Shown here: one piece after another, positions 5,364-45,674 of the stretch
Layout of the letters: every line of letters starts with the position of its first letter
Numbering within the stretch: the first letter of the stretch is position 1
Origin: Promethearchaeota archaeon
GTDB lineage: Archaea > Asgardarchaeota > Lokiarchaeia > Sigyniarchaeales > SOKP01
NCBI GenBank assembly: GCA_048940445.1
Contig: JBHLON010000006.1
Span: forward strand, 31,634 to 95,633
Direction of reading: 5' to 3'
DNA length: 64,000 nt
The notes under the pieces: model-generated
Seen by the model: the letters and a program-made list of their open reading frames with translations, nothing else
Told to the model about the DNA's origin: nothing
Databases searched by the model: none
Translations under genes and position numbers: made by a program

Positions 5364-6620
5364 CTATTTAGGAAAAAGTTTTACAATAACTTTTTCTCCC
5401 TTCTTTAATCCTTCTTGATTTGGAGGGATTTCAACAATTCCATCTGAATATATCAATGAAGTAATAATAGCAGAACCTTTCAATTTAATTGGATAAGCTA
5501 TATAATTATGATTTTTTTTTTCTACTCTTACCCTTAAATAATGTAAAATTCCTAAACTTGAAACAGGAATATCTTTATCGATAATTGCAAGAAGTTCATT
5601 TCTAGGATCTAAGACAGAACACCCTAACATTTTCCTAATGGCAAGTCCTGCAATTTTTAAAAAGGAAACATATGCTGCTACAGGTGTTCCGGGAAGACAG
5701 AAAATTAGAGTATTATTAAAAAGACCCAATAATATAGGTGAACCAGGTCTCATTGCAATACCGTGTGTTATAATAGTACCTAATTCATTAATAATTTCAG
5801 GTAAATAATCTTTTGTCCCAACTGATGTGCCTCCAGTGAAAATTAAAACTTGAGAATCTTTTGTTGCTTCAATCAGCTTCTGTTTTATGATAAACTTATC
5901 ATCTTTAAATGTTTCAGCTCTAATGACAAACCCTCCATATAAATTCACTAAAGATGATATCATTAAATTATTTGAGTTGTAAATCTTACCAGGTTTCAAG
6001 GTATCACCAGGTTCTACTAACTCGTCTCCTGAAGAAAAAATACTTACTCTTGGTTTAATTTTTACTTCTATATGGTTTAATCCTAAAGAGGATAAAAGAG
6101 CTAAATGTTCAGCTTTTAAGTCTGTGCCCTTTCTTAGTATTTGGGTCCTCTTTTTAATATCTTCTCCTTTCTTTGAAACATTTTTTCCTGGAACTAAAGA
6201 TACATAAAGCCTTATTAAATCATTTTCTATTTCTGTATCTTCTATCTTTATAACAGCATCAGCACCTTCTGGTAACGGCGCACCTGTAGAAATTTTACAA
6301 CCTTCACTTTTTTCAATTTTAACTTCTGCAGATTCGCCAATTTCAACAGTTCCAACAAGTTTTATCATTTTAGGAGTTTTTAGAGAGGCCCCAAATGAAT
6401 CCTCTGCTTTAATCGCATAGCCATCCATAGCTGATCGATCAAAAGGGGGGATATCCAATTGACTGACGATATCTTTTGCTAAGATTCGATTTAAACTATC
6501 CTTAATGTCAATATCTTCAACTGAAGTTTCTTGGATCTTTAAAAATAATTTATCTAAAGCATCATCTATTGGTGTTAACTTAGAAAATCCTATTTTTCGA
6601 AGTTTTTCCACTTGTATCAC
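5364..6620 (-). CDS. moeA: Molybdopterin molybdo/tungstotransferase MoeA (copy 1)
   Basis: PPFDRSAMDGYA, TGAPLPEGADAV, SGDEL, GGTSVG, LPGTP. Confidence 0.95.
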   Translation of the reverse strand: MIQVEKLRKIGFSKLTPIDDALDKLFLKIQETSVEDIDIKDSLNRILAKDIVSQLDIPPFDRSAMDGYAIKAEDSFGASLKTPKMIKLVGTVEIGESAEVKIEKSEGCKISTGAPLPEGADAVIKIEDTEIENDLIRLYVSLVPGKNVSKKGEDIKKRTQILRKGTDLKAEHLALLSSLGLNHIEVKIKPRVSIFSSGDELVEPGDTLKPGKIYNSNNLMISSLVNLYGGFVIRAETFKDDKFIIKQKLIEATKDSQVLIFTGGTSVGTKDYLPEIINELGTIITHGIAMRPGSPILLGLFNNTLIFCLPGTPVAAYVSFLKIAGLAIRKMLGCSVLDPRNELLAIIDKDIPVSSLGILHYLRVRVEKKNHNYIAYPIKLKGSAIITSLIYSDGIVEIPPNQEGLKKGEKVIVKLFPK

Positions 6621-34464: not shown

Positions 34465-35472
34465 TCAATTTCTTTCTTTAAAGAATTTCCGTTTTCTTGA
34501 TAAACTTTGCTTATAATTCTCCATCATTTGATTAAATAGTTTAGCTCCCAGAGTTAATCTCCAATGTGGTTTAGTAGCAATAATATCCCCAAATTTTGAT
34601 TTCTTTCCTTTTTCATATTGTTTTTTTATTTGAAACTTTATTTGAAAAATGTTCTTAAGTTCTTCTAAAAATCTTTTACTAGATGAGGTGATTCTTGTGC
34701 TCTTCGCATTACCATCACCATCATAATATCCTAATAAAAATGCAAGTAATAATTCTTTTTTTTTTTCAAGATTATTTGGAAGGGTTTTTCTTTCAGACTT
34801 TGAGCTTGAAAATCCAATAGACATTAAATCTTCTACCATAGGTTTACACCTAAATCTAACATAGACCATCTTATAATATTTTAATTGGTATCCATACTTT
34901 CTTATTCTAAAACGAGACTTAATCATATCTATGTGATTTAATCCTATTATATCACAAAACTTGACAAGTTGATTTTTATCTTTACTAGACAGTTCTAATG
35001 AAATTAAATACCAAGGTTTACCCTTATAACGGTATGTTACTGATCCATCAGCATAGAGAAACCCCAACCAATAAGCTTTATCAAGAGAATTTATCTTATT
35101 AAAAAAATTATATTTTAATCCAACTTCATACTGCTGATTTGGATATAATTTCATGTTAGTATTAAAGGATATATATTTTAAAATGAACCCTATACATATC
35201 AATGATTTATCAGGAACATTTTTAATGATATTTCTTGAAAAATTAAATAGATTTCTTTCAGAAAAAAGATAATTAGGATTATAACCTCTAATATTTGGAT
35301 TTCTTATCCGCACTTTTAAATCAGAGAAATAGGTTTTACCATATCCTAAAGAGCTACTAGCATTAGACAAAGAACCTAGTACTTTAGAAAGATCTCTTAT
35401 TAAATCTAGAGTTGAATATCCCTTTTTTTTATAGTAGAACCCATTTTCTGTTAAATTTTCTTTCGGTTCCAT
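34465..35472 (-). CDS. Free-standing double-motif LAGLIDADG endonuclease-like protein
   Basis: AYWLGFLYADGS and AFLLGYYDGDGN helices. Confidence 0.85.
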   Translation of the reverse strand: MEPKENLTENGFYYKKKGYSTLDLIRDLSKVLGSLSNASSSLGYGKTYFSDLKVRIRNPNIRGYNPNYLFSERNLFNFSRNIIKNVPDKSLICIGFILKYISFNTNMKLYPNQQYEVGLKYNFFNKINSLDKAYWLGFLYADGSVTYRYKGKPWYLISLELSSKDKNQLVKFCDIIGLNHIDMIKSRFRIRKYGYQLKYYKMVYVRFRCKPMVEDLMSIGFSSSKSERKTLPNNLEKKKELLLAFLLGYYDGDGNAKSTRITSSSKRFLEELKNIFQIKFQIKKQYEKGKKSKFGDIIATKPHWRLTLGAKLFNQMMENYKQSLSRKRKFFKERN

Positions 35473-35701
35473 TTCATATCTAAAATTAATTCAGGATTTA
35501 TAAATTCCATTCTTAATCTTTCTTAAAAAGTAAATCTTTTAGAAATTGAAGTGTAATTTCTAGTACTTAGTAAGAGGAATAATATTTATTTTTAATCTCT
35601 ACGAAGATTTTCTGAATTTAAATGATTTATTTTGTTAAGCGATTAAAATAAGAATTTTATATAATGATTCTTTTAAGTATTTCATATAGAATTTTTAATA
35701 T

Positions 35702-38533
35702 ATGGTGATTGAAATAGTTAAGGCAAATCATATCGTAATAGTACCGGAAACTCATTGGGACCGTGAAACCTTATGAAATTTATACATTAGGCACGATTGG
35801 TATCTCCCATTCCAAGAATATAGAGCTCGGTTAGTTCTTATGATGGATAAGCTCTTAGAAATTTTGAAACAAGATCCAAAATATACTAATTTTACTCTTG
35901 ACGGACAAGTCATTCCCATTGAAGATTATCTTGAGGTATCCCCAGAAAAAAAAGAAGAAATAATGAAATTTGTGAAAGAAAAGAGACTTTCAATTGGCCC
36001 CAGTTATGTTTTACCAGATGAATTTTTAATCAGCGGAGAATCTTTGATAAGAAATTTGATGATAGGCCATCAAATCTCAAGAAACTATGGGAGAGTTATG
36101 AAAGCAGGTTATATTCCTGATCCTTTTGGTCACATTGCTCAATTACCCCAAATTTTGAAAGGATTTGAACTTCCTTCAGTTTTTTTCTACCGTGGTTTTG
36201 GTGATGAATTTGAAACTCAAGAACTAAATATGGAATTTATTTGGAAATCGCCAGGGAATGCTGCTTCTATCTTAGCCATTCACTTAATTTTAGGTTATTT
36301 TTCAGTAGCAGATTTAAATTATTCAGATAAAGGTGGAGATTATACGAGGGTATTAGACAAACTAAAAGAAGTAGTCTTTAAATTAGAAGAATATACTGCT
36401 ACTCCCATAATTCTATTAAACAGTGGTTCGGACCATCATGAAGCACATCCAGAACTTCCAGAAATTATAAAGCAATGGAATAAAAGTTACCCAGATAAAA
36501 AAATGGAACAAAATGACTTTGAATATTATATCAGCAAAGTTTTGGAATGTCGACCTCAATTAAAGTCATATCAAGGAGAATTAAGAGGAAGTAAATATGC
36601 AAACATTATTGCTAGCGTTCTGTCCACAAGGATGTGGATTAAACAGAGAAATACAAAAATAGAATACTTATTCGAGAAGTACACGGAACCATTTTCAACA
36701 CTTATATGGGTTCTTGATAAATATCATGAGTTCCTTTATCCTGCATCTTATATTCAAGTTGGTTTAAAATGGTTAATTAAAAATCATCCTCATGATAGTA
36801 TCTGTGGTTGTTCTATTGATCAAGTTCACAATGAGATGAGAACTCGTTTTGATTGGGCAGAACAAATAGGAAATGAAATCATTAAAAATTCTTTTCTATA
36901 CTTAATAAGATTGATAGGATATGAGAAAAGCTGGACAAAAATACCTCTTTTTGTCTTTAATCCTTTACCTTGGGAAAGAAAAGATGTAATTGAATTCAAC
37001 TTTATAACTGAATTTTTTGGGTATAAAACCTCCACAAATTTTAAAATAGTTGATATTAATGGAAATGAAATAGAATATCAATATATTAGAGTAGAAGAGG
37101 AACCAAGATTTAAGAGTGTGTTAAGTAATAGCTATTTATGTAGTTTTTTAGCTGAGACACCAGCATTAGGATATAAAATTTATTATTTAATTCCCAGAAA
37201 GAAAGCTAAAACCTATCTAAAAGAAGAGAAAGAATTTAGAATAACACAAAACACCTTAGAGAATCAATTTTTCCTTGTGAAAGTAAGCTTAAATGGAATG
37301 ATAGATGTTTATGATAAGAAAGCTAATAAATGGTACGAAAAACTGTGCTTTATTGAGGATGTTGGTGATTGGGGTGATGAATATGACTTTTCAGGTCCAA
37401 ATGAAAATCAAACTGATTTCTTATACACATCTGAGGATTTGAACTTTTTGGGAATTAAACCATATGTTGATGGACCTACCCAAAAAACCATAAAACTGGA
37501 TCTCAATTTAAACTTACCAGAGGCCCTCTCTGAAGATAGATTTAATAGAGAGCCTAATTTGGTTTTAAATCTAATAACTATTTATATTACATTATATAAA
37601 GATATTAAACGTATTGACTTTAAACTAGATTTGGAAAATAATAGCAAAGATCATAGAATTAGAGTCTTATTTCCTACAGGAATCGAATCTGAGAAAGTAG
37701 ACTGTGATGGACATTTCTATGTTATACCAAGAGCCGTGGACTTACCGAAAGTTGACAATTGGTATCAAAATCCTCGCCCTACAAATCATCAAAAAGATTT
37801 TGTGTCAATAAGTAATAAATCACGAACTTTCGCTATATTGAATAAAGGATTACCTGAATATGAAGCAATTAGAAATCAGGATGGGACTATAACGTTAGCG
37901 ATAACTCTATTGCGTTGTATTGAGTGGCTTTCTAGAGATGATTTCATTACTCGAAAGGATATGGCTGGTCCTGCTTTCAATACTCCTGAAGCGCAATGTC
38001 TTGGAAAACATTCATTTGATTTTTCATTAATTATCGAAGAGAATAAGAGTGGTTGGCTAGAATCAGAAATTCATGTTAAAGGAAAGGAGTTCAATAATCC
38101 CTTTAAAGTATTATTTCTAAATGCGCTTAAAATTCCTTTTAGAATGTCTAATAAAACTATACTATTTCCTACTCATCGAATTGTTAGTTTTGGTATGACA
38201 GAAGATGAGCCTTTAGAACCAGTTTTACCTCTTGAACTAAGTTTTTTAGAAATTGATAATAAGAACATATTACTAAGTGCTTTAAAAAAGTCTGAAGAAG
38301 ATGACAATCTAATAGTTAGAATTTATAATGTTTCTCCAATCCCACAGAAAAGTACTTTAAAATTTTGTAACCAAGTGAAAATTGAAAAAGCTGCAATAGT
38401 GAACTTATTAGAGGAAGCTCCTATTAATGATATAAAAGCCACTGTTAAAGTTCTAGATAGAAACACTCTATTAGCAGAATTGCAAGCTCATGTTATTGCG
38501 ACAATTAGAATATTGAACTCAAAAAGTGAATAA
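35702..38533 (+). CDS. GH38 alpha-mannosidase, split: exon 1 35702-35767, exon 2 35798-38533
   Basis: Joined exons give HIVIVPETHWDREWYLPFQEYR; LDGQ, PDPFGH, HPHDSICGCS downstream. Confidence 0.92.
35768..35797 (+). other. Candidate 30-nt BHB-type mRNA intron in the GH38 gene
   Basis: CGTG-AA^A-CCT.ATG...CAT.AGG-CACG-AT^T; contains in-frame TGA; removal restores DRE|WY. Confidence 0.85.
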
Positions 38534-38655
38534 CAAATAAACTAATTATTCATATTCTTGAAAGTTTGAAATGAATAAGAATATTGTAAATTTGGCGAAG
38601 CTTAAATTCTGTTCTTAGTTATCCATATTAAATTAGAATTTATATCAAGGAAATT

Positions 38656-39726
38656 TTGATGAAATTCCCAGAATACCTAAAAAGTTATAAACAAAATATC
38701 AATGAAGCAATAAAGCAAATCTTTAAGAAAAAAATTAAGCAATTAAATAATTCATTTCTGAAGGATTATTATACTGAATTAAAGGATTATTTTTTAGTTG
38801 GGGGCAAAAGGATTCGTCCATTACTATGTATCGCATCATATAATGCCTTTAGGAAACAACACGATGATAAAGTAATACCGATAAGTGTTGGTATTGAATT
38901 TCTTCACAATGCATCTTTAATACATGATGACATTATTGATAAGGACGATTATCGGAGAGGAAATCCCTCCTTTCATTTTCGATTTAAAAATTATCATAAA
39001 AGCTATAATTTTAAAAAAACAAATGATGTAGATTTTGGTAATTCTATTGGAATTATTGGTGGAGATACAGCATTCTTTTTAGGATTAGAAGCTTATCTAT
39101 TCAATGATTTCGAAAAAGAGATTAACAACAAAGCTATTAGCCTTTATGAACAAGCGTTTATTGATATAGCTAATGGAGTCTTAATCGAGATGGATATGGT
39201 AAATAAAGAAAAAATTGAAATGGCGGAGTACATAGAAATGATTTCTTTAAAAACCAGTGCCTTAATTGAAAAGTCATTATTAATTGGAGCAAATTATTCC
39301 CAGATGGATAAAGCTCTTGAAAAAAGTTTATCAACTTATGGAATTAACCTGGGTATAGTATTTCAAATAATTGATGATATTTTAGGGACTTTTGGAGATG
39401 AAAAAGTTACCGGAAAACCTACTGATGGAGATATAAGAGAAGGGAAAAAAACGTGTCTATTGATTGAAGCCTTAAATAAATTAGACTCAAATAAAAAGAG
39501 TCAGCTTGAGAACATTGTAAATAAAAGCGATATCAGTAATGAGGATGTAGAAATTGTAAAAAATTTATTCATTGATGCTGATGTAATTAACTCTAGCAAA
39601 AAATTAGCTGAAACATATTATCAAAAAGCTAAATTAGCCCTAGATAGTTTATCAGATTACATAAATCCTCAAGAATTCGAATTTTTTGATGATCTCCTAA
39701 ATTTTGTTATGAATAGAACGTATTAA
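38656..39726 (+). CDS. idsA: Geranylgeranyl diphosphate synthase
   Basis: GGKRIRP, HDDIID.DDYRRG, KT, FQIIDDIL, GDIREGK. Confidence 0.93.
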   Translation: MMKFPEYLKSYKQNINEAIKQIFKKKIKQLNNSFLKDYYTELKDYFLVGGKRIRPLLCIASYNAFRKQHDDKVIPISVGIEFLHNASLIHDDIIDKDDYRRGNPSFHFRFKNYHKSYNFKKTNDVDFGNSIGIIGGDTAFFLGLEAYLFNDFEKEINNKAISLYEQAFIDIANGVLIEMDMVNKEKIEMAEYIEMISLKTSALIEKSLLIGANYSQMDKALEKSLSTYGINLGIVFQIIDDILGTFGDEKVTGKPTDGDIREGKKTCLLIEALNKLDSNKKSQLENIVNKSDISNEDVEIVKNLFIDADVINSSKKLAETYYQKAKLALDSLSDYINPQEFEFFDDLLNFVMNRTY

Positions 39727-39803
39727 CCATTATAAAGATCTATATTCAAGCTTCAATTAGTAAATATATATTAGTAACATAAAAAGGAAAATTGAATGTT
39801 AAA

Positions 39804-41699
39804 TCATAACTTTTGATTAACCCATTGATATAATTCTCCCAATAGAACCATCTTATCTTTACTTTTTTTGAGATTGTCTATATTGTTCACATTTAATAGC
39901 CACATTGCAGATTTTAATTCATGTTTTAATGTTTTTATCTCTTTAATTGTATTGATTGTAGTATTGTTATTATAATCATTCCACGCGGAGACAAGGAATT
40001 TATAGGCAAAACCACCAATATCAGCTCCTAATATGATACTTTTTGCGATATCCAAACCTGTTTTTAAGCCCCCTGTAGCAATCAATAACTTATTTGAAGC
40101 TTCTCTGACTTTTAAAATACTTATTGGTGTGGGAATTCCCCATTCCCTAAAAGTATCCGCTATTTTTCGAGAAAATACTTCATAATCTGAGTTATCACGA
40201 AAAGCCTCAATCGCTGCAAAACTGGTACCTCCTGTTCCTCCTACATCAAATCCATTAAATCCCAAAAGATCAAGTTTTATGGCTAAATCCTTATTAAAAC
40301 CAGTTCCAACCTCCTTTGCTATCAAAGGAATTTTTGCAGCTTTTTTTACTTTTACAAAATTCTCTTGAAAATTACGATATGAGAGATCTCCATTACGCTG
40401 CACTAATTCATGTAAAGCATTAAAATGAATAGCCATCGCATCAGCGTTTACTATTTTGACGCATTCCTCAAACTGATTTTGTCCAAAATCAGGATGACTT
40501 ATTTGCCCTATACCAATATTCCCTATTATTGGTATATTAGGAGCAACTTCACGAACAACTTTAAATGAATCTATAGTAGATAGATCTTCTACAGCTATTC
40601 TTTGACTTCCCACACTCATTATAATATTTTCCGATTCAGCAGCTAAGGCTAGAATTTTATTAATTGCCTTGGAAATGGGATGTCCTCCTGTTATTGCTGC
40701 TATACAAATAGGAGCAGATATATATTTGCTAAAGAATCGAGTAGAAAGATCTACATCATTAAAATCTATTTCAGGAAGAGCATGATGTATAAGTTTTATA
40801 TCTTCAAAATAATTTTTTGAATGTTGGACATTAAATTTTAAAGGTATTTCTAAATGATCTAATTTTCTAGAATATATTTCATTTTTGAGTGGAATCTTTG
40901 ATTCTGGTTTAATATATGTACATGTTAATTTCTGATCCCGTAATGCCTTAAAAACATAATTTTCCTTCAATCCATTAATAACTTGAATGGGGATATCTAA
41001 TTCACTAATCTTTTTCATCATTGCTAGTTTTCCTTTAATTCCTCCGGTAACATCTATTTTTTCATCAAGTTTAGCTAATTGGATTTCATCTATTTCGCTT
41101 GAAGCTATTTCTAAGGCTAGTTTTGAATGATCTTTATCTTGAATATATAAGCCATCTTTTTCTATTGCAAAAATAACTTTAATAATTCTTTTTCGGTATT
41201 TTTTACATAATTCAAAAATAATTCGATCGCCTGAAAGTATTGAAAAAGATCCTCCCTTAGTGAATAGAATGTCACCATATAGTATAGGAAGAATGCCAAG
41301 ATTTAATATAGCGTCAATAGAATCCATTGATTCAAATGAGACTGTATTTGCATCTTGAATAAATATAGTCGACGGTTGAACTGAAATTGCTGGAGAATTT
41401 TTTTCAATAAACTGACGAACAATAAGAGAATTGAGTTCATTCATGGCTTTATGAGTTTTAGAAAGTCCTACTAATTGATCCTTAACTAAAGGGTTTAAAC
41501 CTTTAGAGATTTGATATTCTTTTGCTAACGGATGCCCAAATGATCCTCCTCCGTGAACGAGAATTAATTTTTGATTACTTTTAATGATTTGTTCGATTGT
41601 ATCATTAATTATATCTTTTCTTAGAGAAAAAGGATCATTTTTCTCTGTTAACAGACTACCTCCCAATTTTAATAGATAAATTCTATTAGATTCCATCAA
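39804..41699 (-). CDS. fni: Fusion of isopentenyl phosphate kinase and type 2 IPP isomerase
   Basis: N-half KLGGS, HGGGSFGH, SGD, DVTGG; C-half RKLDH, AITGG, VGSQR, KEVGTG, GGTSF, WGIPT. Confidence 0.9.
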   Translation of the reverse strand: MMESNRIYLLKLGGSLLTEKNDPFSLRKDIINDTIEQIIKSNQKLILVHGGGSFGHPLAKEYQISKGLNPLVKDQLVGLSKTHKAMNELNSLIVRQFIEKNSPAISVQPSTIFIQDANTVSFESMDSIDAILNLGILPILYGDILFTKGGSFSILSGDRIIFELCKKYRKRIIKVIFAIEKDGLYIQDKDHSKLALEIASSEIDEIQLAKLDEKIDVTGGIKGKLAMMKKISELDIPIQVINGLKENYVFKALRDQKLTCTYIKPESKIPLKNEIYSRKLDHLEIPLKFNVQHSKNYFEDIKLIHHALPEIDFNDVDLSTRFFSKYISAPICIAAITGGHPISKAINKILALAAESENIIMSVGSQRIAVEDLSTIDSFKVVREVAPNIPIIGNIGIGQISHPDFGQNQFEECVKIVNADAMAIHFNALHELVQRNGDLSYRNFQENFVKVKKAAKIPLIAKEVGTGFNKDLAIKLDLLGFNGFDVGGTGGTSFAAIEAFRDNSDYEVFSRKIADTFREWGIPTPISILKVREASNKLLIATGGLKTGLDIAKSIILGADIGGFAYKFLVSAWNDYNNNTTINTIKEIKTLKHELKSAMWLLNVNNIDNLKKSKDKMVLLGELYQWVNQKL

Positions 41700-41736
41700 A
41701 CTTAATTACCATTTAAATTTTCTTTCTAAATTGGTT

Positions 41737-42703
41737 TTAACCAATCATTGTTTTCCAAATTGAAAATCCTTCGTTTTTAATTGCGTTAAAGACTTGTTCT
41801 TGGGAAATTTCGTCGGAATTTAATGCTATCACCAATCCTCCTCGTCCTGTTCCAGTCATTTTCGCTCCTATGGCGCCATTGTTTAGAGCTATTTCCACAA
41901 TTTTATCATTTATTTCTCCTGAAACCGTCATCACTCGTAGTAATTTATGATTTTGATTCATTAATGCTCCAACAATGTCCTTTTTACCTTTAATTAACGC
42001 TTTTTTAGCGTGTTTAGCGATTTCCTTATATTCACTAAATATTGATTTAAATTTGTCTGAGTTTTCTTCTTTCAATTTACGAACATCCTCGACGACCTCT
42101 GCAGTAGAAGCCGTTATTCCAGTATCAGCAATCACTAAATGCATTTTACTTTTTGATTTTAAACGATCAATAGTGTTTTTCCCACCTTTTAAGTTCTTTA
42201 TAAACCAGATCAACCCTCCATAGGTAGATGCTGTATTATCAATACCAGAAGGCGTTCCATGGTATGCCATTTCCCCAGCATAAGCAGCAGCGTTAATTTT
42301 TTCATCATCTAAATTAAGTTTAAATTCTTCATTAAGTGCCCGTGCAAGAGATGTACATTGAGCGGCTGAAGCACCTACTCCACTTGTAGCAACCAAATCG
42401 CCACTAAATTTAATCTCTAGTCTATTATTAACTACATCAATCTTTAAAAATTCTAAAACATTTTTTATAGCTTCATTAGCTTCATTCTGCTTTTTTTCTT
42501 TATAACCAGATGTTGCCATTCGTTGGTCATCAACATACCATCCTTGACCATCTACAACTTTAACGGTAGTGATTGTCATTGACCCTAAAGCAGATGCAAT
42601 AGCGGGAAGACCATAAACCACGAAATGTTAGTGTTTACTCCCTAATTGGGAAATAAAACTCACCAAAAAGGATGATCTTTCCATAACCTTTTCCAGTACC
42701 CAT
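41737..42703 (-). CDS. mvk: Mevalonate kinase, split: exon 1 42703-42659, exon 2 42627-41737
   Basis: Joined exons give MGTGKGYGKIILFGEHFVVYG; GVGASAA, HGTPSGIDN, GAKMTGTGRGG; SD GAGGTGA before ATG 42703. Confidence 0.92.
42628..42658 (-). other. Candidate 31-nt BHB-type mRNA intron in mvk
   Basis: GGTG-AG^T-TTTATTTCC..GGGAGTAAA-CACT-AA^C; frameshifting, with in-frame TAA; removal restores FGE|HF. Confidence 0.88.
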
Positions 42704-42767
42704 AAATTTCACCTCTTTTTTTAACCTAGATAATTTATTTTAATTTTAATAAAAAGTTTTATGAAAA

Positions 42768-43160
42768 TCATTCAAGAATCTCAACTGTTCCTTCAGTACC
42801 ATTTACCATTATTTGGTCATCATTTTTAATTTTATCAATTTCGATCAGATCTACGCAAGGAATTTCACTTATGATGCACCCTACTGCAATAATAGTGTCA
42901 ATATTCTTGTTAATTATCGCTAAAGGAGCAGTCTTGTTTTTTTTCATTCGATACATGGTATAAGATCCTACCGTAGATCCTTTTCCAGTAGGAAATACTA
43001 AAATCTTCCCAGTAATTGTTTGTCCTTCTAATTCATGACCCACTTCAACCACGTTTCCAGAATCAGGATCAACTCCTCCATAAAATGAAATTCCTTCTTT
43101 GGTTACCATAGCTTTTCCTGAGACGATCCCTTGATATATTTTCCTCCCTTTTAATTTCAT
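42768..43160 (-). CDS. Phosphomevalonate dehydratase small subunit (AcnX swivel domain, DUF126)
   Basis: ISFYGGVDP..G, GKGSTVGSY; pathway context. Confidence 0.88.
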   Translation of the reverse strand: MKLKGRKIYQGIVSGKAMVTKEGISFYGGVDPDSGNVVEVGHELEGQTITGKILVFPTGKGSTVGSYTMYRMKKNKTAPLAIINKNIDTIIAVGCIISEIPCVDLIEIDKIKNDDQIMVNGTEGTVEILE

Positions 43161-44350
43161 TTTATGGCCTCCTCAACACATTGTTCAATTGTCCCAATCT
43201 TTACTTTAAATTTATTTTTTGCCCTTCCATAATAACAAGCTTTAGCTGAATCAACCATGATTCCTTTGAAACGGCCCTTAATCGGTGCAACAACGCAACA
43301 AGTATCTGCTGCAAACTTGGCACCTGCTTGTTCAATTATATTAGTATACCCGGCCTTATCAGCAACATTTTTGGTTGGTCGGGCAGTGGTTATCCAAAAT
43401 TCCTTCTTTACTTTCTTTCCTTCAAGTAATTTTGCTATTAATGCTAGTTCATGAATAGAGGCATGAGGACATCCTACACTTACGAAATCTACTTTAAGAT
43501 CTTTGTCAGTAAGATCCTGACGAGCTTTTTTTATATCCTCCTGATTTATCTGAAAAGAAATATCATTCGGTTTAGGATATTTGTTAAATTCTGGAGTAAT
43601 ATTTTCCATATGAAACAAGGCTGTCCCTCCATAAGTAGCAATTGAAGCACAAAATGACTTGAGTTCTTCAACAGTAGCAACCGGAATTCCCGTAATATAA
43701 GGGATTTTACATCCTGTTTCTACTAATTTATCCCCAATTATTTTTCCTAACAAACCAAATTCATCGCTATCTTTAACGTGCACATTAATGTTAAATAATA
43801 CTTGTCCATGACGATTTTTATCTAAATGATAACCATAATTAGGAGTTTTTCCAGTTAAAGCAGCTGCTAAAGCACTCGGTCCACCTTCGCGATTAGTTTT
43901 AGCTCCAATAACTGAGTTAGAGTAACATACAGCACTACTTTCAGCCCAAGCAATATGTTCTCCATAGTGAGGAGTATTTCCAATTAGATATGGAGTACAT
44001 GAACAAGTCGTAATAATTCCCATTTTAGCAAAAGCATCTATAGCACGATTTTGATTTTGTGCAAATTCCTCACTTATTCCCAATACTTCCCAATTTTCAC
44101 GATCCATACCAGCTGGATTCAAAGTGGTTAAAACTCTAACTTGCCCATCTTCGGCCATTTCATTGAGAAATTCTAAGCCTGCTTCACCTAAATTATCATA
44201 AGAAACTCCAGCTATCTGAACACTAGATACATCGATCATGTTTTCTGCATTAAAAATTTCTCCTAATGTTGTTAGGATCTCCATTGATTTTTGAGTAGCT
44301 TTACCGTATTTTCCATATAGCATATCTTTCTCTTCGGGTTTTAATTGCAT
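43157..44350 (-). CDS. Phosphomevalonate dehydratase large subunit (AcnX catalytic domain, DUF521)
   Basis: TTLNP, CSCTPY, WAESSA, GCPHAS, DTCCVV; ATG 44350 preferred. Confidence 0.88.
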   Translation of the reverse strand: MQLKPEEKDMLYGKYGKATQKSMEILTTLGEIFNAENMIDVSSVQIAGVSYDNLGEAGLEFLNEMAEDGQVRVLTTLNPAGMDRENWEVLGISEEFAQNQNRAIDAFAKMGIITTCSCTPYLIGNTPHYGEHIAWAESSAVCYSNSVIGAKTNREGGPSALAAALTGKTPNYGYHLDKNRHGQVLFNINVHVKDSDEFGLLGKIIGDKLVETGCKIPYITGIPVATVEELKSFCASIATYGGTALFHMENITPEFNKYPKPNDISFQINQEDIKKARQDLTDKDLKVDFVSVGCPHASIHELALIAKLLEGKKVKKEFWITTARPTKNVADKAGYTNIIEQAGAKFAADTCCVVAPIKGRFKGIMVDSAKACYYGRAKNKFKVKIGTIEQCVEEAIK

Positions 44351-44360
44351 ATTTATCACT

Positions 44361-45674
44361 TTAAACAAAATATTTTTCTAAATCTACATTCGGGAATTTT
44401 GCTTTATTGAAATCTTTTCCTTTTGTTTGCATAGGTTTAGTAAAATCAAATCCTATCTTTGTCGTTAATTTTGTTCCAAGTTCAGCACTTGGATCTAAAC
44501 TACTTCCTGGTTCTTTATCTTTTATTATCATTCTTTTATCTCCTTGAAACCTAGTTGCCATAGCCCATTCTATAGATAATGGGTCATAGATATCAATATC
44601 TTTATCAACTATAAAAACATGCTTACAGCTACTATGCCCTGTAAATGCACCTTGAATTGCTTTTTTGCCATCATCTTCAGAATTTTTATCAATTTTAACA
44701 ATGGCATGCAACCATGAACATCCTCCTGGATTAATATTTACATCCAAACATTTTACACCCATTTCATTTACTTTATTAAAGATGGTGGGCTCACGAGGCA
44801 TACCCATTAAAATCTTATGTTCTAGGGCACCAGGTAGTAAAGCTTGCCAAATTGCATTTTTTCTATGAGTAATTTTCTTAACTTCAAATACAGGTTCTTC
44901 TCTGATAATATCATAAGTTTCCGTTAAATCAACAAATGGCCCTTCAGCGTGTTTCTCCTCTAAATAAACTCTTCCTTCTAAAACAAATTCAGTTTCTGCT
45001 GGAATAAGCAAATCAACAGACTTCGCTTTAACGACTTTAATTGATTCCAATGCATTTGCGATAGTTAATTCATCAATTCCCATATCAACCGAAGTAGCTC
45101 CAGCAATAAGGATATTTGGAGTATTTCCTATACAATACGCAACATCCAACTCTCCATTCTTTATTAAAAATTTATCAAAATGACGCCCTTTTACTACTCT
45201 TGTAGAAAATTTATCTTTAGAAAATTGCATAGCTCTATGAAAGTCTAGGTTTTGACCATATTCAGGGTCTCTAGTTACCACTACGGCAGAACTTATATAA
45301 TTTCCTCCATCTTTTTCACAATGAAATAAAATTGGGATTTGATCTAAATCTACATTCGGTTCTACCACTTCTTGGCAACGAGCTGTTGAAACTAATTGGG
45401 GTTCTGAGCGATTTAATATAGCTTTTGAAAGTTTTGGTATAAGATCAACTGGAGTAATTCCGAAGTAAGAAGCAACTGCACTTTTAGTACAAAACATATT
45501 ACCAACTACACGAAAATCAGATTCTTTAACATTATTAAAAAGTACAGGAGTGGGTTCCAATTCTTTTAGGATACCAGAAATTTCCAATTTCCGTGAAACT
45601 TCACCTTCTACCTTTTTAAGTACACCGTTATCATCAATCTTGTTTAAATATTCTCTAAATCCCACATTTACCAC
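44361..45674 (-). CDS. ubiD: UbiD-family decarboxylase (anhydromevalonate phosphate decarboxylase by context)
   Basis: DGGNY, FHR, EGPFVD, VD.DID, EWAMATR, SSLDPS. Confidence 0.88.
   Translation of the reverse strand: MVNVGFREYLNKIDDNGVLKKVEGEVSRKLEISGILKELEPTPVLFNNVKESDFRVVGNMFCTKSAVASYFGITPVDLIPKLSKAILNRSEPQLVSTARCQEVVEPNVDLDQIPILFHCEKDGGNYISSAVVVTRDPEYGQNLDFHRAMQFSKDKFSTRVVKGRHFDKFLIKNGELDVAYCIGNTPNILIAGATSVDMGIDELTIANALESIKVVKAKSVDLLIPAETEFVLEGRVYLEEKHAEGPFVDLTETYDIIREEPVFEVKKITHRKNAIWQALLPGALEHKILMGMPREPTIFNKVNEMGVKCLDVNINPGGCSWLHAIVKIDKNSEDDGKKAIQGAFTGHSSCKHVFIVDKDIDIYDPLSIEWAMATRFQGDKRMIIKDKEPGSSLDPSAELGTKLTTKIGFDFTKPMQTKGKDFNKAKFPNVDLEKYFV

What the first reader, a model, noticed from the sequence alone, without database searches (positions are those of the whole stretch)
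35702..42703. Shared grammar of the two introns suggests a genome-wide mRNA-intron system
Seen: both introns are 30-31 nt, phase 0, follow a Glu codon, lie within the first 15-22 codons and interrupt a highly conserved motif. Both contain an in-frame stop and share the junction pattern NGTG-AR^...CACN-AW^, yet their interiors are unrelated. Two cases within 7 kb imply more elsewhere, hidden as N-terminally truncated genes. Inference: a recurring EndA/RtcB-dependent intron class with a GTGAR target preference, possibly acting as an on/off switch for translation. This would be relevant to intron origins in the lineage closest to eukaryotes.
Basis: partly seen in the sequence, partly recalled or inferred. 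Interest (0 to 1): 0.9.

Follow-up and report, generated by a model that had tools for sequence, protein, structure and literature searches.

The report
tRNA-type mini-introns across Asgard protein genes
At least 16 short (mostly about 30-base) inserts shaped like tRNA introns break protein genes of this Lokiarchaeia (Asgard) archaeon, several of them single-copy housekeeping genes, so its tRNA-splicing enzymes very probably also splice many mRNAs; papers I could search report this inside a coding sequence for one archaeal gene only.

Summary
Both inserts are real and lie where described: 30 nt in a GH38 alpha-mannosidase, 31 nt in the only mevalonate kinase. Each forms a bulge-helix-bulge (BHB) whose standard cuts restore the motif. 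Within the genus they sit at the same site in 8 of 28 GH38 genes and 12 of 18 kinase genes read, with variable interiors, compensatory pairing (strong for GH38) and purifying selection on exon 1.

The genome-wide prediction holds. A motif-free homology census plus checked leads give 16 inserts in 14 genes of this genome (purA, metG, dnaG, uL11, fwdA, uvrA and others), 8 aligned to intronless homologues. The host has an A. pernix-like two-subunit EndA with the broad-specificity loop, and RtcB.

The proposed grammar fails. GTG-AR occurs in 2 of 16, Glu/phase 0 in 3 of 16, and all phases occur; what is shared is the BHB itself. An on/off switch is unsupported, because sister species gain or lose the inserts. 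They are confined to one family in the samples searched, so they are not spliceosomal ancestors. No spliced RNA was seen here. The scan found this class before on other DNA, including this kinase intron.

The parts
35702..35767 (+). GH38 alpha-mannosidase exon 1 (22 codons, ends in HWDRE; carries the His/Asp that bind the metal in GH38, from my knowledge of the family)
   Evidence: pN/pS 0.13 among intron bearers, 0 in the last 9 codons
35768..35797 (+). 30-nt BHB intron with in-frame TGA (35774-35776); central helix 35762-35765 with 35792-35795
35798..38533 (+). GH38 exon 2 (911 codons, intact)
   Evidence: Pfam PF01074 starts at model position 14; PDB GH38 match starts at its residue 21
42659..42703 (-). 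Mevalonate kinase exon 1 (15 codons, ends in GE)
   Evidence: pN/pS 0.11 among intron bearers
42628..42658 (-). 31-nt BHB intron, frameshifting, in-frame TAA (42637-42635); central helix 42664-42661 with 42633-42630; 9-bp inner stem
41737..42627 (-). Mevalonate kinase exon 2 (296 codons, intact); only copy over the TIGR00549 cut-off, match starts at model position 11
39804..45674 (-). Context: modified (Aeropyrum-type) mevalonate operon: probable UbiD-like gene (inferred, not scanned), AcnX large and small subunits, mevalonate kinase, AA-kinase/FMN-dependent fusion (IPK-IDI2, inferred)

Best explanation
These are true pre-mRNA introns of the archaeal BHB type, two of at least 16 in protein genes of this Lokiarchaeia genome. 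The last 4 paired exon bases anneal to the intron's 3' end, the intron folds back as a hairpin, the relaxed two-subunit EndA cuts after the second base of each 3-nt bulge and RtcB joins the exons; only then is the full protein made. SHOWN: inserts, geometry, exact borders from intronless homologues, structural constraint, purifying selection on exon 1, presence of the enzymes. INFERRED: cutting and joining of the mRNA in the cell. INFERRED, weaker: the introns are tolerated passengers that come and go rather than switches. They favour G/C-rich 4-mers (47 of 64 helix bases are G or C in a 30% GC genome), which would place them in Gly/Trp/Arg/Pro codons of conserved motifs.
For: (1) Borders set by intronless orthologues coincide with the BHB cuts for GH38, kinase, purA, Rab-like GTPase, uvrA, fwdA-1, rubredoxin and an RHH gene; chance is 2-3% per position. 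Four more motif-free finds in relatives (EF-1alpha, an acyl-CoA-dehydrogenase-like gene, LMW-PTP, uppS) all have the 4-bp helix and A-bulges. (2) GH38 intron: 92% of cells paired, 6 pairs with two-sided changes, 0/500 shuffles, slid controls 27-51%. Kinase: one two-sided change in the central helix linking a synonymous exon site to the intron; whole-structure signal weak, 21/500. (3) Junction codons are frozen in intron bearers (8/8 identical in GH38) and vary in intronless genes (13 variants in 17). (4) Exon 1 pN/pS 0.11-0.13. (5) Single-copy housekeeping genes are broken: kinase, purA, metG, uL11, fwdA. (6) EndA alpha subunit is closest to A. pernix alpha, with catalytic Tyr/His/Lys and the loop lysine aligned to K44 (PMC3241643); a second subunit lacks the His; RtcB is intact. 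(7) Host tRNAs carry both canonical and 32-33-nt non-canonical introns. (8) The purA insert recurs in an independent JGI assembly.
Against: Most mRNA cases have only 0-1 bp of exon-exon helix next to the bulge, two have a mismatch in the central helix (metG, RHH), and 5 of 12 kinase introns have a G-A at the outer helix pair, so they need a relaxed enzyme whose range is inferred from sequence only. A motif-only scan is not enriched over frame-shifted controls. Eight of the 16 rest on motif restoration only, and most came as leads from earlier notes. The genomes compared are related, so the counts are not independent.
Confidence: 0.9

Rival explanations
1. One reading: a targeted class with a GTGAR preference whose splicing is regulated and acts as an on/off switch for translation.
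For: Most inserts carry a stop or frameshift and lie early in the gene (KS p 2e-5, approximate positions); several genes are housekeeping; 8 of 16 exon ends finish in G-A-purine.
Against: GTG-AR in 2 of 16, and in only 1 of 12 kinase orthologues. The GH38 intron needs at least 5 changes on the tree and differs between sisters only 0.02-0.03 substitutions per site from their ancestor. fwdA carries 0, 1 or 2 inserts across the genus. One insert is in frame with no stop. The hit genes share no pathway.
Confidence: 0.1
2. The genes are pseudogenes or assembly errors, or the truncated product from an internal start is used.
For: Gene callers produce 294-aa kinase and 897-aa GH38 frames from internal starts.
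Against: Same site in 8-12 separately assembled genomes with diverged interiors; exon 1 under purifying selection; exon 2 intact; single copies; the cut-off part holds the conserved N-terminal motif.
Confidence: 0.02
3. Translational bypassing or stop read-through instead of splicing.
For: Short stop-containing gaps with a hairpin resemble a bypass gap (from my knowledge of T4 gene 60); six other inserts have 3-4 nt end repeats.
Against: The two focal inserts have no matched take-off and landing codons (ambiguity 0/0). Ten of 16 split a codon. Selection acts on exon-intron pairing at BHB spacing. Read-through would leave 10 residues in the active-site motif and cannot mend 31-nt inserts.
Confidence: 0.04
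4. The inserts are removed at the DNA level (small excisable or mobile elements).
For: Patchy, precise presence and absence; a LAGLIDADG gene lies next to GH38.
Against: No end repeats or target duplication in the focal two; interiors are mutually unrelated and the GH38 and kinase inserts have no full-length second copy in the genome; constraint is on RNA-type pairs including G-U.
Confidence: 0.03

Closest known systems
cbf5 pre-mRNA intron of Desulfurococcales and Sulfolobales (Yokobori et al. 2009, PMC2738675)
   Same: BHB or relaxed BHB in an mRNA, 16-44 nt, inside a catalytic motif, cut by a hetero-oligomeric EndA between bulge bases 2 and 3, gained and lost in evolution, missed by annotation.
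   Different: One gene there, with splicing shown; here at least 14 unrelated genes in one genome, some with two introns, a tight 30-31 nt mode and fast turnover between sister species. The host's own cbf5 motif is intact. Splicing not shown here.
BHB intron in the 5' UTR of Haloferax HVO_1309 (PMC7714728)
   Same: EndA substrate in an mRNA.
   Different: 46 nt, in a UTR, not frame-breaking. That 2020 paper names cbf5 as the only other reported mRNA case.
Non-canonical tRNA introns of Asgard archaea (bioRxiv 10.64898/2026.10.13.758758)
   Same: Repeated gains at BHB-compatible sites, missed by annotators, route of arrival unknown.
   Different: tRNA genes only; the word 'mRNA' does not occur in its text; its focal lineages are Jordiarchaeia and Atabeyarchaeia.
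Ire1/RtcB splicing of XBP1 and HAC1 mRNA (my knowledge)
   Same: Short, frame-shifting, non-spliceosomal mRNA intron joined by a tRNA ligase.
   Different: Different nuclease and motif; a proven regulatory switch in one gene, whereas no regulation is evident here.
Spliceosomal and group II introns (my knowledge)
   Same: Interrupt coding sequence; intron-poor eukaryotes also show a 5' bias.
   Different: Lariat transesterification with GT-AG ends versus protein endonuclease plus ligase; no homology. These inserts look lineage-restricted.

Membership tests
Archaeal BHB (EndA/RtcB) introns | 4-bp central helix between exon end and intron end, with two 3-nt bulges on opposite strands | tested here: met
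   Both focal inserts 4/4 pairs; 14 of 16 in the genome 4/4, two 3/4
Archaeal BHB (EndA/RtcB) introns | Borders fall after the second base of each bulge | tested here: met
   Intronless orthologues give exactly these borders, with zero ambiguity for the focal two
Archaeal BHB (EndA/RtcB) introns | Intron-side helix (h') kept by selection | tested here: met
   GH38 covariation 0/500 shuffles; kinase 83% paired, weak covariation
Archaeal BHB (EndA/RtcB) introns, strict hBHBh' form | Exon-exon helix (h) directly next to the bulge | tested here: not met
   1 bp in both focal cases; 0-1 bp in 11 of 16. They fit the relaxed form, as many cbf5 introns do.
Archaeal BHB (EndA/RtcB) introns | Host encodes a broad-specificity EndA and an RNA ligase | tested here: met
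   Two EndA genes, alpha with catalytic residues and loop lysine; RtcB intact. Substrate range inferred from sequence.
Archaeal BHB (EndA/RtcB) introns | Excision from the RNA in vivo or by EndA in vitro | not testable with these tools
   No RNA holder was listed for this stretch, so no reads could be laid
Spliceosomal introns | GT-AG ends and a branch point | tested here: not met
   Ends are A..AT and T..AA in the focal pair and vary across the 16
Translational bypass (T4 gene 60 type) | Matched take-off and landing codons | tested here: not met
   No end repeat in the focal two; most others split a codon
Proposed 'GTGAR / Glu / phase 0' class | Exon ends in GTG-AR after a Glu codon in phase 0 | tested here: not met
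   2 of 16 and 3 of 16; kinase orthologues end GGCG-AA in 11 of 12

The most novel reading that the evidence does not exclude
One Lokiarchaeia family runs an actively spreading population of about 30-nt BHB mRNA introns, inserted and precisely removed through an RNA route (reverse splicing guided by the intron's 4-nt 3' helix strand, loss by reverse transcription of spliced message, hence the 5' bias), and EndA/RtcB activity gates the output of essential genes in a regulated way, a prokaryotic counterpart of Ire1/XBP1 splicing.
Probability: 0.15. Interest if true: 0.93.

Novelty: new variant of a known kind. Interest (0 to 1): 0.8.

Why it matters
Papers I could search report splicing inside an archaeal coding sequence for cbf5 only. 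Here one Asgard genome has at least 16 such inserts, several in single-copy housekeeping genes, so mRNA splicing would be routine in a prokaryote. It gives a directly testable system for how short introns are gained and precisely lost between sister species, a question left open for Asgard tRNA introns. It also means that public Lokiarchaeia proteomes hold truncated or wrong-frame N-termini, including for a Rab-like GTPase and for lipid and translation genes. It shows that an archaeal cell can live with mRNA splicing, but it does not explain where spliceosomal introns came from.

Tried and rejected
No RNA holder was listed for window 35400-43200, so read laying could not be used; this is no evidence either way. 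A JGI scan for the joined kinase sequence of the intron-bearing clade found nothing, and a scan for purA with or without the insert found one insert-bearing contig; neither tests splicing.

Motif-only genome scans gave no enrichment over frame-shifted geometries (101 vs 112 and 101; 79 vs 82-129; bulge-length scan flat). A tighter scan ranked five true cases in its top seven but was tuned on them. A search for introns shared with relatives timed out after 19 contigs and was noise. Low-threshold tRNA calling was noise. The first census threshold was too loose; gene fusion and fission boundaries (HdrA/MvhD-like, IPK-IDI) were set aside by eye. The C65 candidate showed no BHB and was dropped. The second longin insert could not be placed unambiguously and is not counted.

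I took no more genome DNA by any tool and used table-only searches afterwards, so the purA matches starting at model position 10 in genus g12 remain unread. A PDB search with the 22-aa exon found nothing. Eight literature searches found no paper on multi-gene mRNA BHB introns; subscription papers are not covered.
Full report
1. Observation. The window is contig C78 of a 3.64-Mb, 30% GC genome whose mevalonate kinase relatives are mostly labelled Promethearchaeota/Lokiarchaeia. On the + strand a GH38 alpha-mannosidase starts at 35702 and is broken after codon 22 by 30 nt (35768-35797) holding a TGA. On the - strand mevalonate kinase starts at 42703 and is broken after codon 15 by 31 nt (42658-42628) holding a TAA and shifting the frame. 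Removing them gives open frames of 933 and 311 aa and restores HWDRE|WY and GE|HF. Pfam, TIGR and PDB matches to the second exons begin just after these motifs.

2. Relatives. The kinase insert is at the same site in 12 of 18 same-genus genes read (30-31 nt) and absent from 6, and from all other-family loci read. The GH38 insert is in 8 of 28. Interiors differ by about 28-32% between genomes, while exon 1 keeps pN/pS 0.11-0.13. In GH38 the three junction codons are identical in all 8 intron bearers and take 13 forms in 17 intronless genes. The GH38 structure is 92% paired with 6 two-sided changes (0/500 shuffles; slid controls 27-51%). For the kinase the overall covariation is weak (21/500), but this genome alone has swapped C-G for U-A in the central helix, with the exon change synonymous. 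That same fact shows the 'GTG' shared by the two focal introns is a coincidence: the other 11 kinase genes end in GGCG-AA.

3. Genome-wide. Motif-only scans do not beat frame-shifted controls, though one list exposed a purA insert, confirmed in 9 of 42 genus genomes as +30 bp with stops. A motif-free census against paralogues and sampled relatives (about 43% of residues covered by relatives) recovered GH38, kinase and purA and added a Rab-like GTPase, uvrA, an RHH gene and an in-frame fwdA insert. In the other direction it found EF-1alpha, an acyl-CoA-dehydrogenase-like gene (my reading of the sequence) and an LMW phosphatase in G017, and uppS in G008; all four have the 4-bp helix and A-bulges at the homology-defined border. 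Earlier notes on this genome pointed to further cases, which I relocated and re-derived: rubredoxin (aligned to an intronless orthologue), metG, uL11 (two), dnaG, LMW-PTP, a second fwdA insert, a Zn-ribbon gene and a longin-like gene. Family searches agree: MetRS matches from model position 10, uL11 comes in pieces, fwdA spans 1692 bp in most intronless genomes, 1722 in two and 1752 here. Total: 16 inserts in 14 genes, 21-38 nt, 10 of them 30-31 nt. The notes kept returning the same set and held the four further cases my census found, so the true number is probably of the order of 20 (inference); in-frame inserts are under-detected. Two within 7 kb is then unremarkable.

4. The real grammar. 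Phases 0/1/2 = 6/8/2. Glu before a phase-0 junction: 3 of 16. GTG-AR: 2 of 16. What recurs is the BHB: a 4-bp helix (73% G+C on the exon side), G at its last exon position in 12 of 16, A as first base of the 5' bulge in 13 and of the 3' bulge in 15, and an intron hairpin. An adjacent exon-exon helix is mostly missing (0-1 bp in 11 of 16). Positions lean to the 5' part of genes (KS p 2e-5 with approximate positions; 3e-4 for the seven census cases), but uvrA, the GTPase and fwdA inserts are internal. Interiors are mutually unrelated.

5. Machinery. Two EndA genes: a 208-codon frame closest to the A. pernix alpha subunit (E 3e-38), with Tyr, His, Lys, Arg and Trp at the catalytic and recognition positions and the crenarchaeal-type loop whose lysine aligns, by my count, to K44, the residue shown to matter for broad specificity (PMC3241643); and a 214-codon frame lacking the His, read as the structural subunit. 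RtcB is intact. Host tRNAs have canonical 18-20 nt introns with a full exon helix and non-canonical 32-33 nt introns without one, so the cell must already cut relaxed substrates of this size.

6. Mechanism. The best reading is EndA cleavage at both bulges and RtcB ligation of the pre-mRNA (0.9). The DNA anatomy, the selection signals and the enzymes are shown; the reaction is inferred, since no RNA run was listed. One earlier report on another genome says public RNA holds the spliced dnaG message; I did not check it and do not count it. On the GH38 protein tree the insert needs 7 changes (at least 5 forced by strong branches) and is no more clustered than shuffles; this genome has it and its sister G017 lacks it precisely. 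The kinase insert needs 2-3 changes and one origin is not excluded. Such turnover fits tolerated passengers better than switches. Whether it reflects repeated loss, repeated gain or exchange between species was not resolved.

7. Comparison and novelty. The closest known case is the cbf5 intron (16-44 nt, relaxed BHB, catalytic codon; PMC2738675), named in 2020 as the only coding case besides a Haloferax 5' UTR intron (PMC7714728); the 2009 paper mentions predictions for other genes without confirmation. A 2026 preprint on Asgard introns treats tRNAs only. These inserts meet the tested features of relaxed BHB introns and fail those of spliceosomal introns and bypass gaps. The new element is scale: many unrelated, partly essential genes in one genome. 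In a class-wide sample the stop-bearing purA insert occurred only in the host family and in none of the 17 other-family matches, so this is a lineage-level expansion and not a relic of eukaryotic intron origins; Lokiarchaeia are also not the Asgard group thought closest to eukaryotes (my knowledge). The scan has reported the class before on other DNA (75 notes in at least 38 genomes, including the same kinase intron).

8. Verdict. Observation confirmed; genome-wide class supported; GTGAR grammar and switch not supported; new variant of a known kind; interest 0.8.

Noticed in passing
L006, L007, L008, L009 (ACG), L004 (TTG), L010 (CTG): mevalonate kinase start: Six intron-bearing relatives have lost the ATG of mevalonate kinase (ACG in four, TTG, CTG), while the intronless ones start with ATG or GTG.
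   Followed up: no
window 34465-35472 (-): A free-standing LAGLIDADG gene sits between the phosphodiesterase gene and GH38; in L052, L053 and L060 those two genes appear adjacent, so it looks like an insertion.
   Followed up: partly
window 39804-41699 (-); L100 near 2387: The AA-kinase/FMN-dependent (IPK-IDI2) fusion of this genome is two separate genes in G008.
   Followed up: no
P0001, P0003, P0007: Public protein records of intron-bearing kinases are mis-called: 294 aa truncated, or 315 aa with a wrong-frame N-terminus that reads through the intron.
   Followed up: yes
L099 minus strand near 5880 (G008 uppS); orthologue at about window 51300: G008 lacks the GH38, kinase and purA inserts but has a 30-nt insert in uppS on the same contig as its GH38 and kinase genes; uppS is intact in this genome.
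   Followed up: partly
G017 C11 and C17 samples (L163, L174-L213): 33-nt BHB inserts in EF-1alpha (GTP-binding loop) and in an acyl-CoA-dehydrogenase-like gene, both absent from this genome, and a 21-nt insert in an LMW phosphatase gene.
   Followed up: partly
purA in genus g12 and G080: Eleven g12 genomes match the PurA model only from position 10, as a frameshifting insert at the same site would cause; G080 has +30 bp with a TGA. Not read.
   Followed up: no
G000 tRNA genes on C66, C67, C72, C101, C119: Several tRNAs carry non-canonical D-arm or variable-region inserts that ARAGORN misreads as other anticodons; only 21 tRNA genes are called by default.
   Followed up: partly
G000 C94 near 59800 (longin-like gene): A second insert is needed to open the frame, but two placements (24 or 30 nt) fit.
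   Followed up: partly
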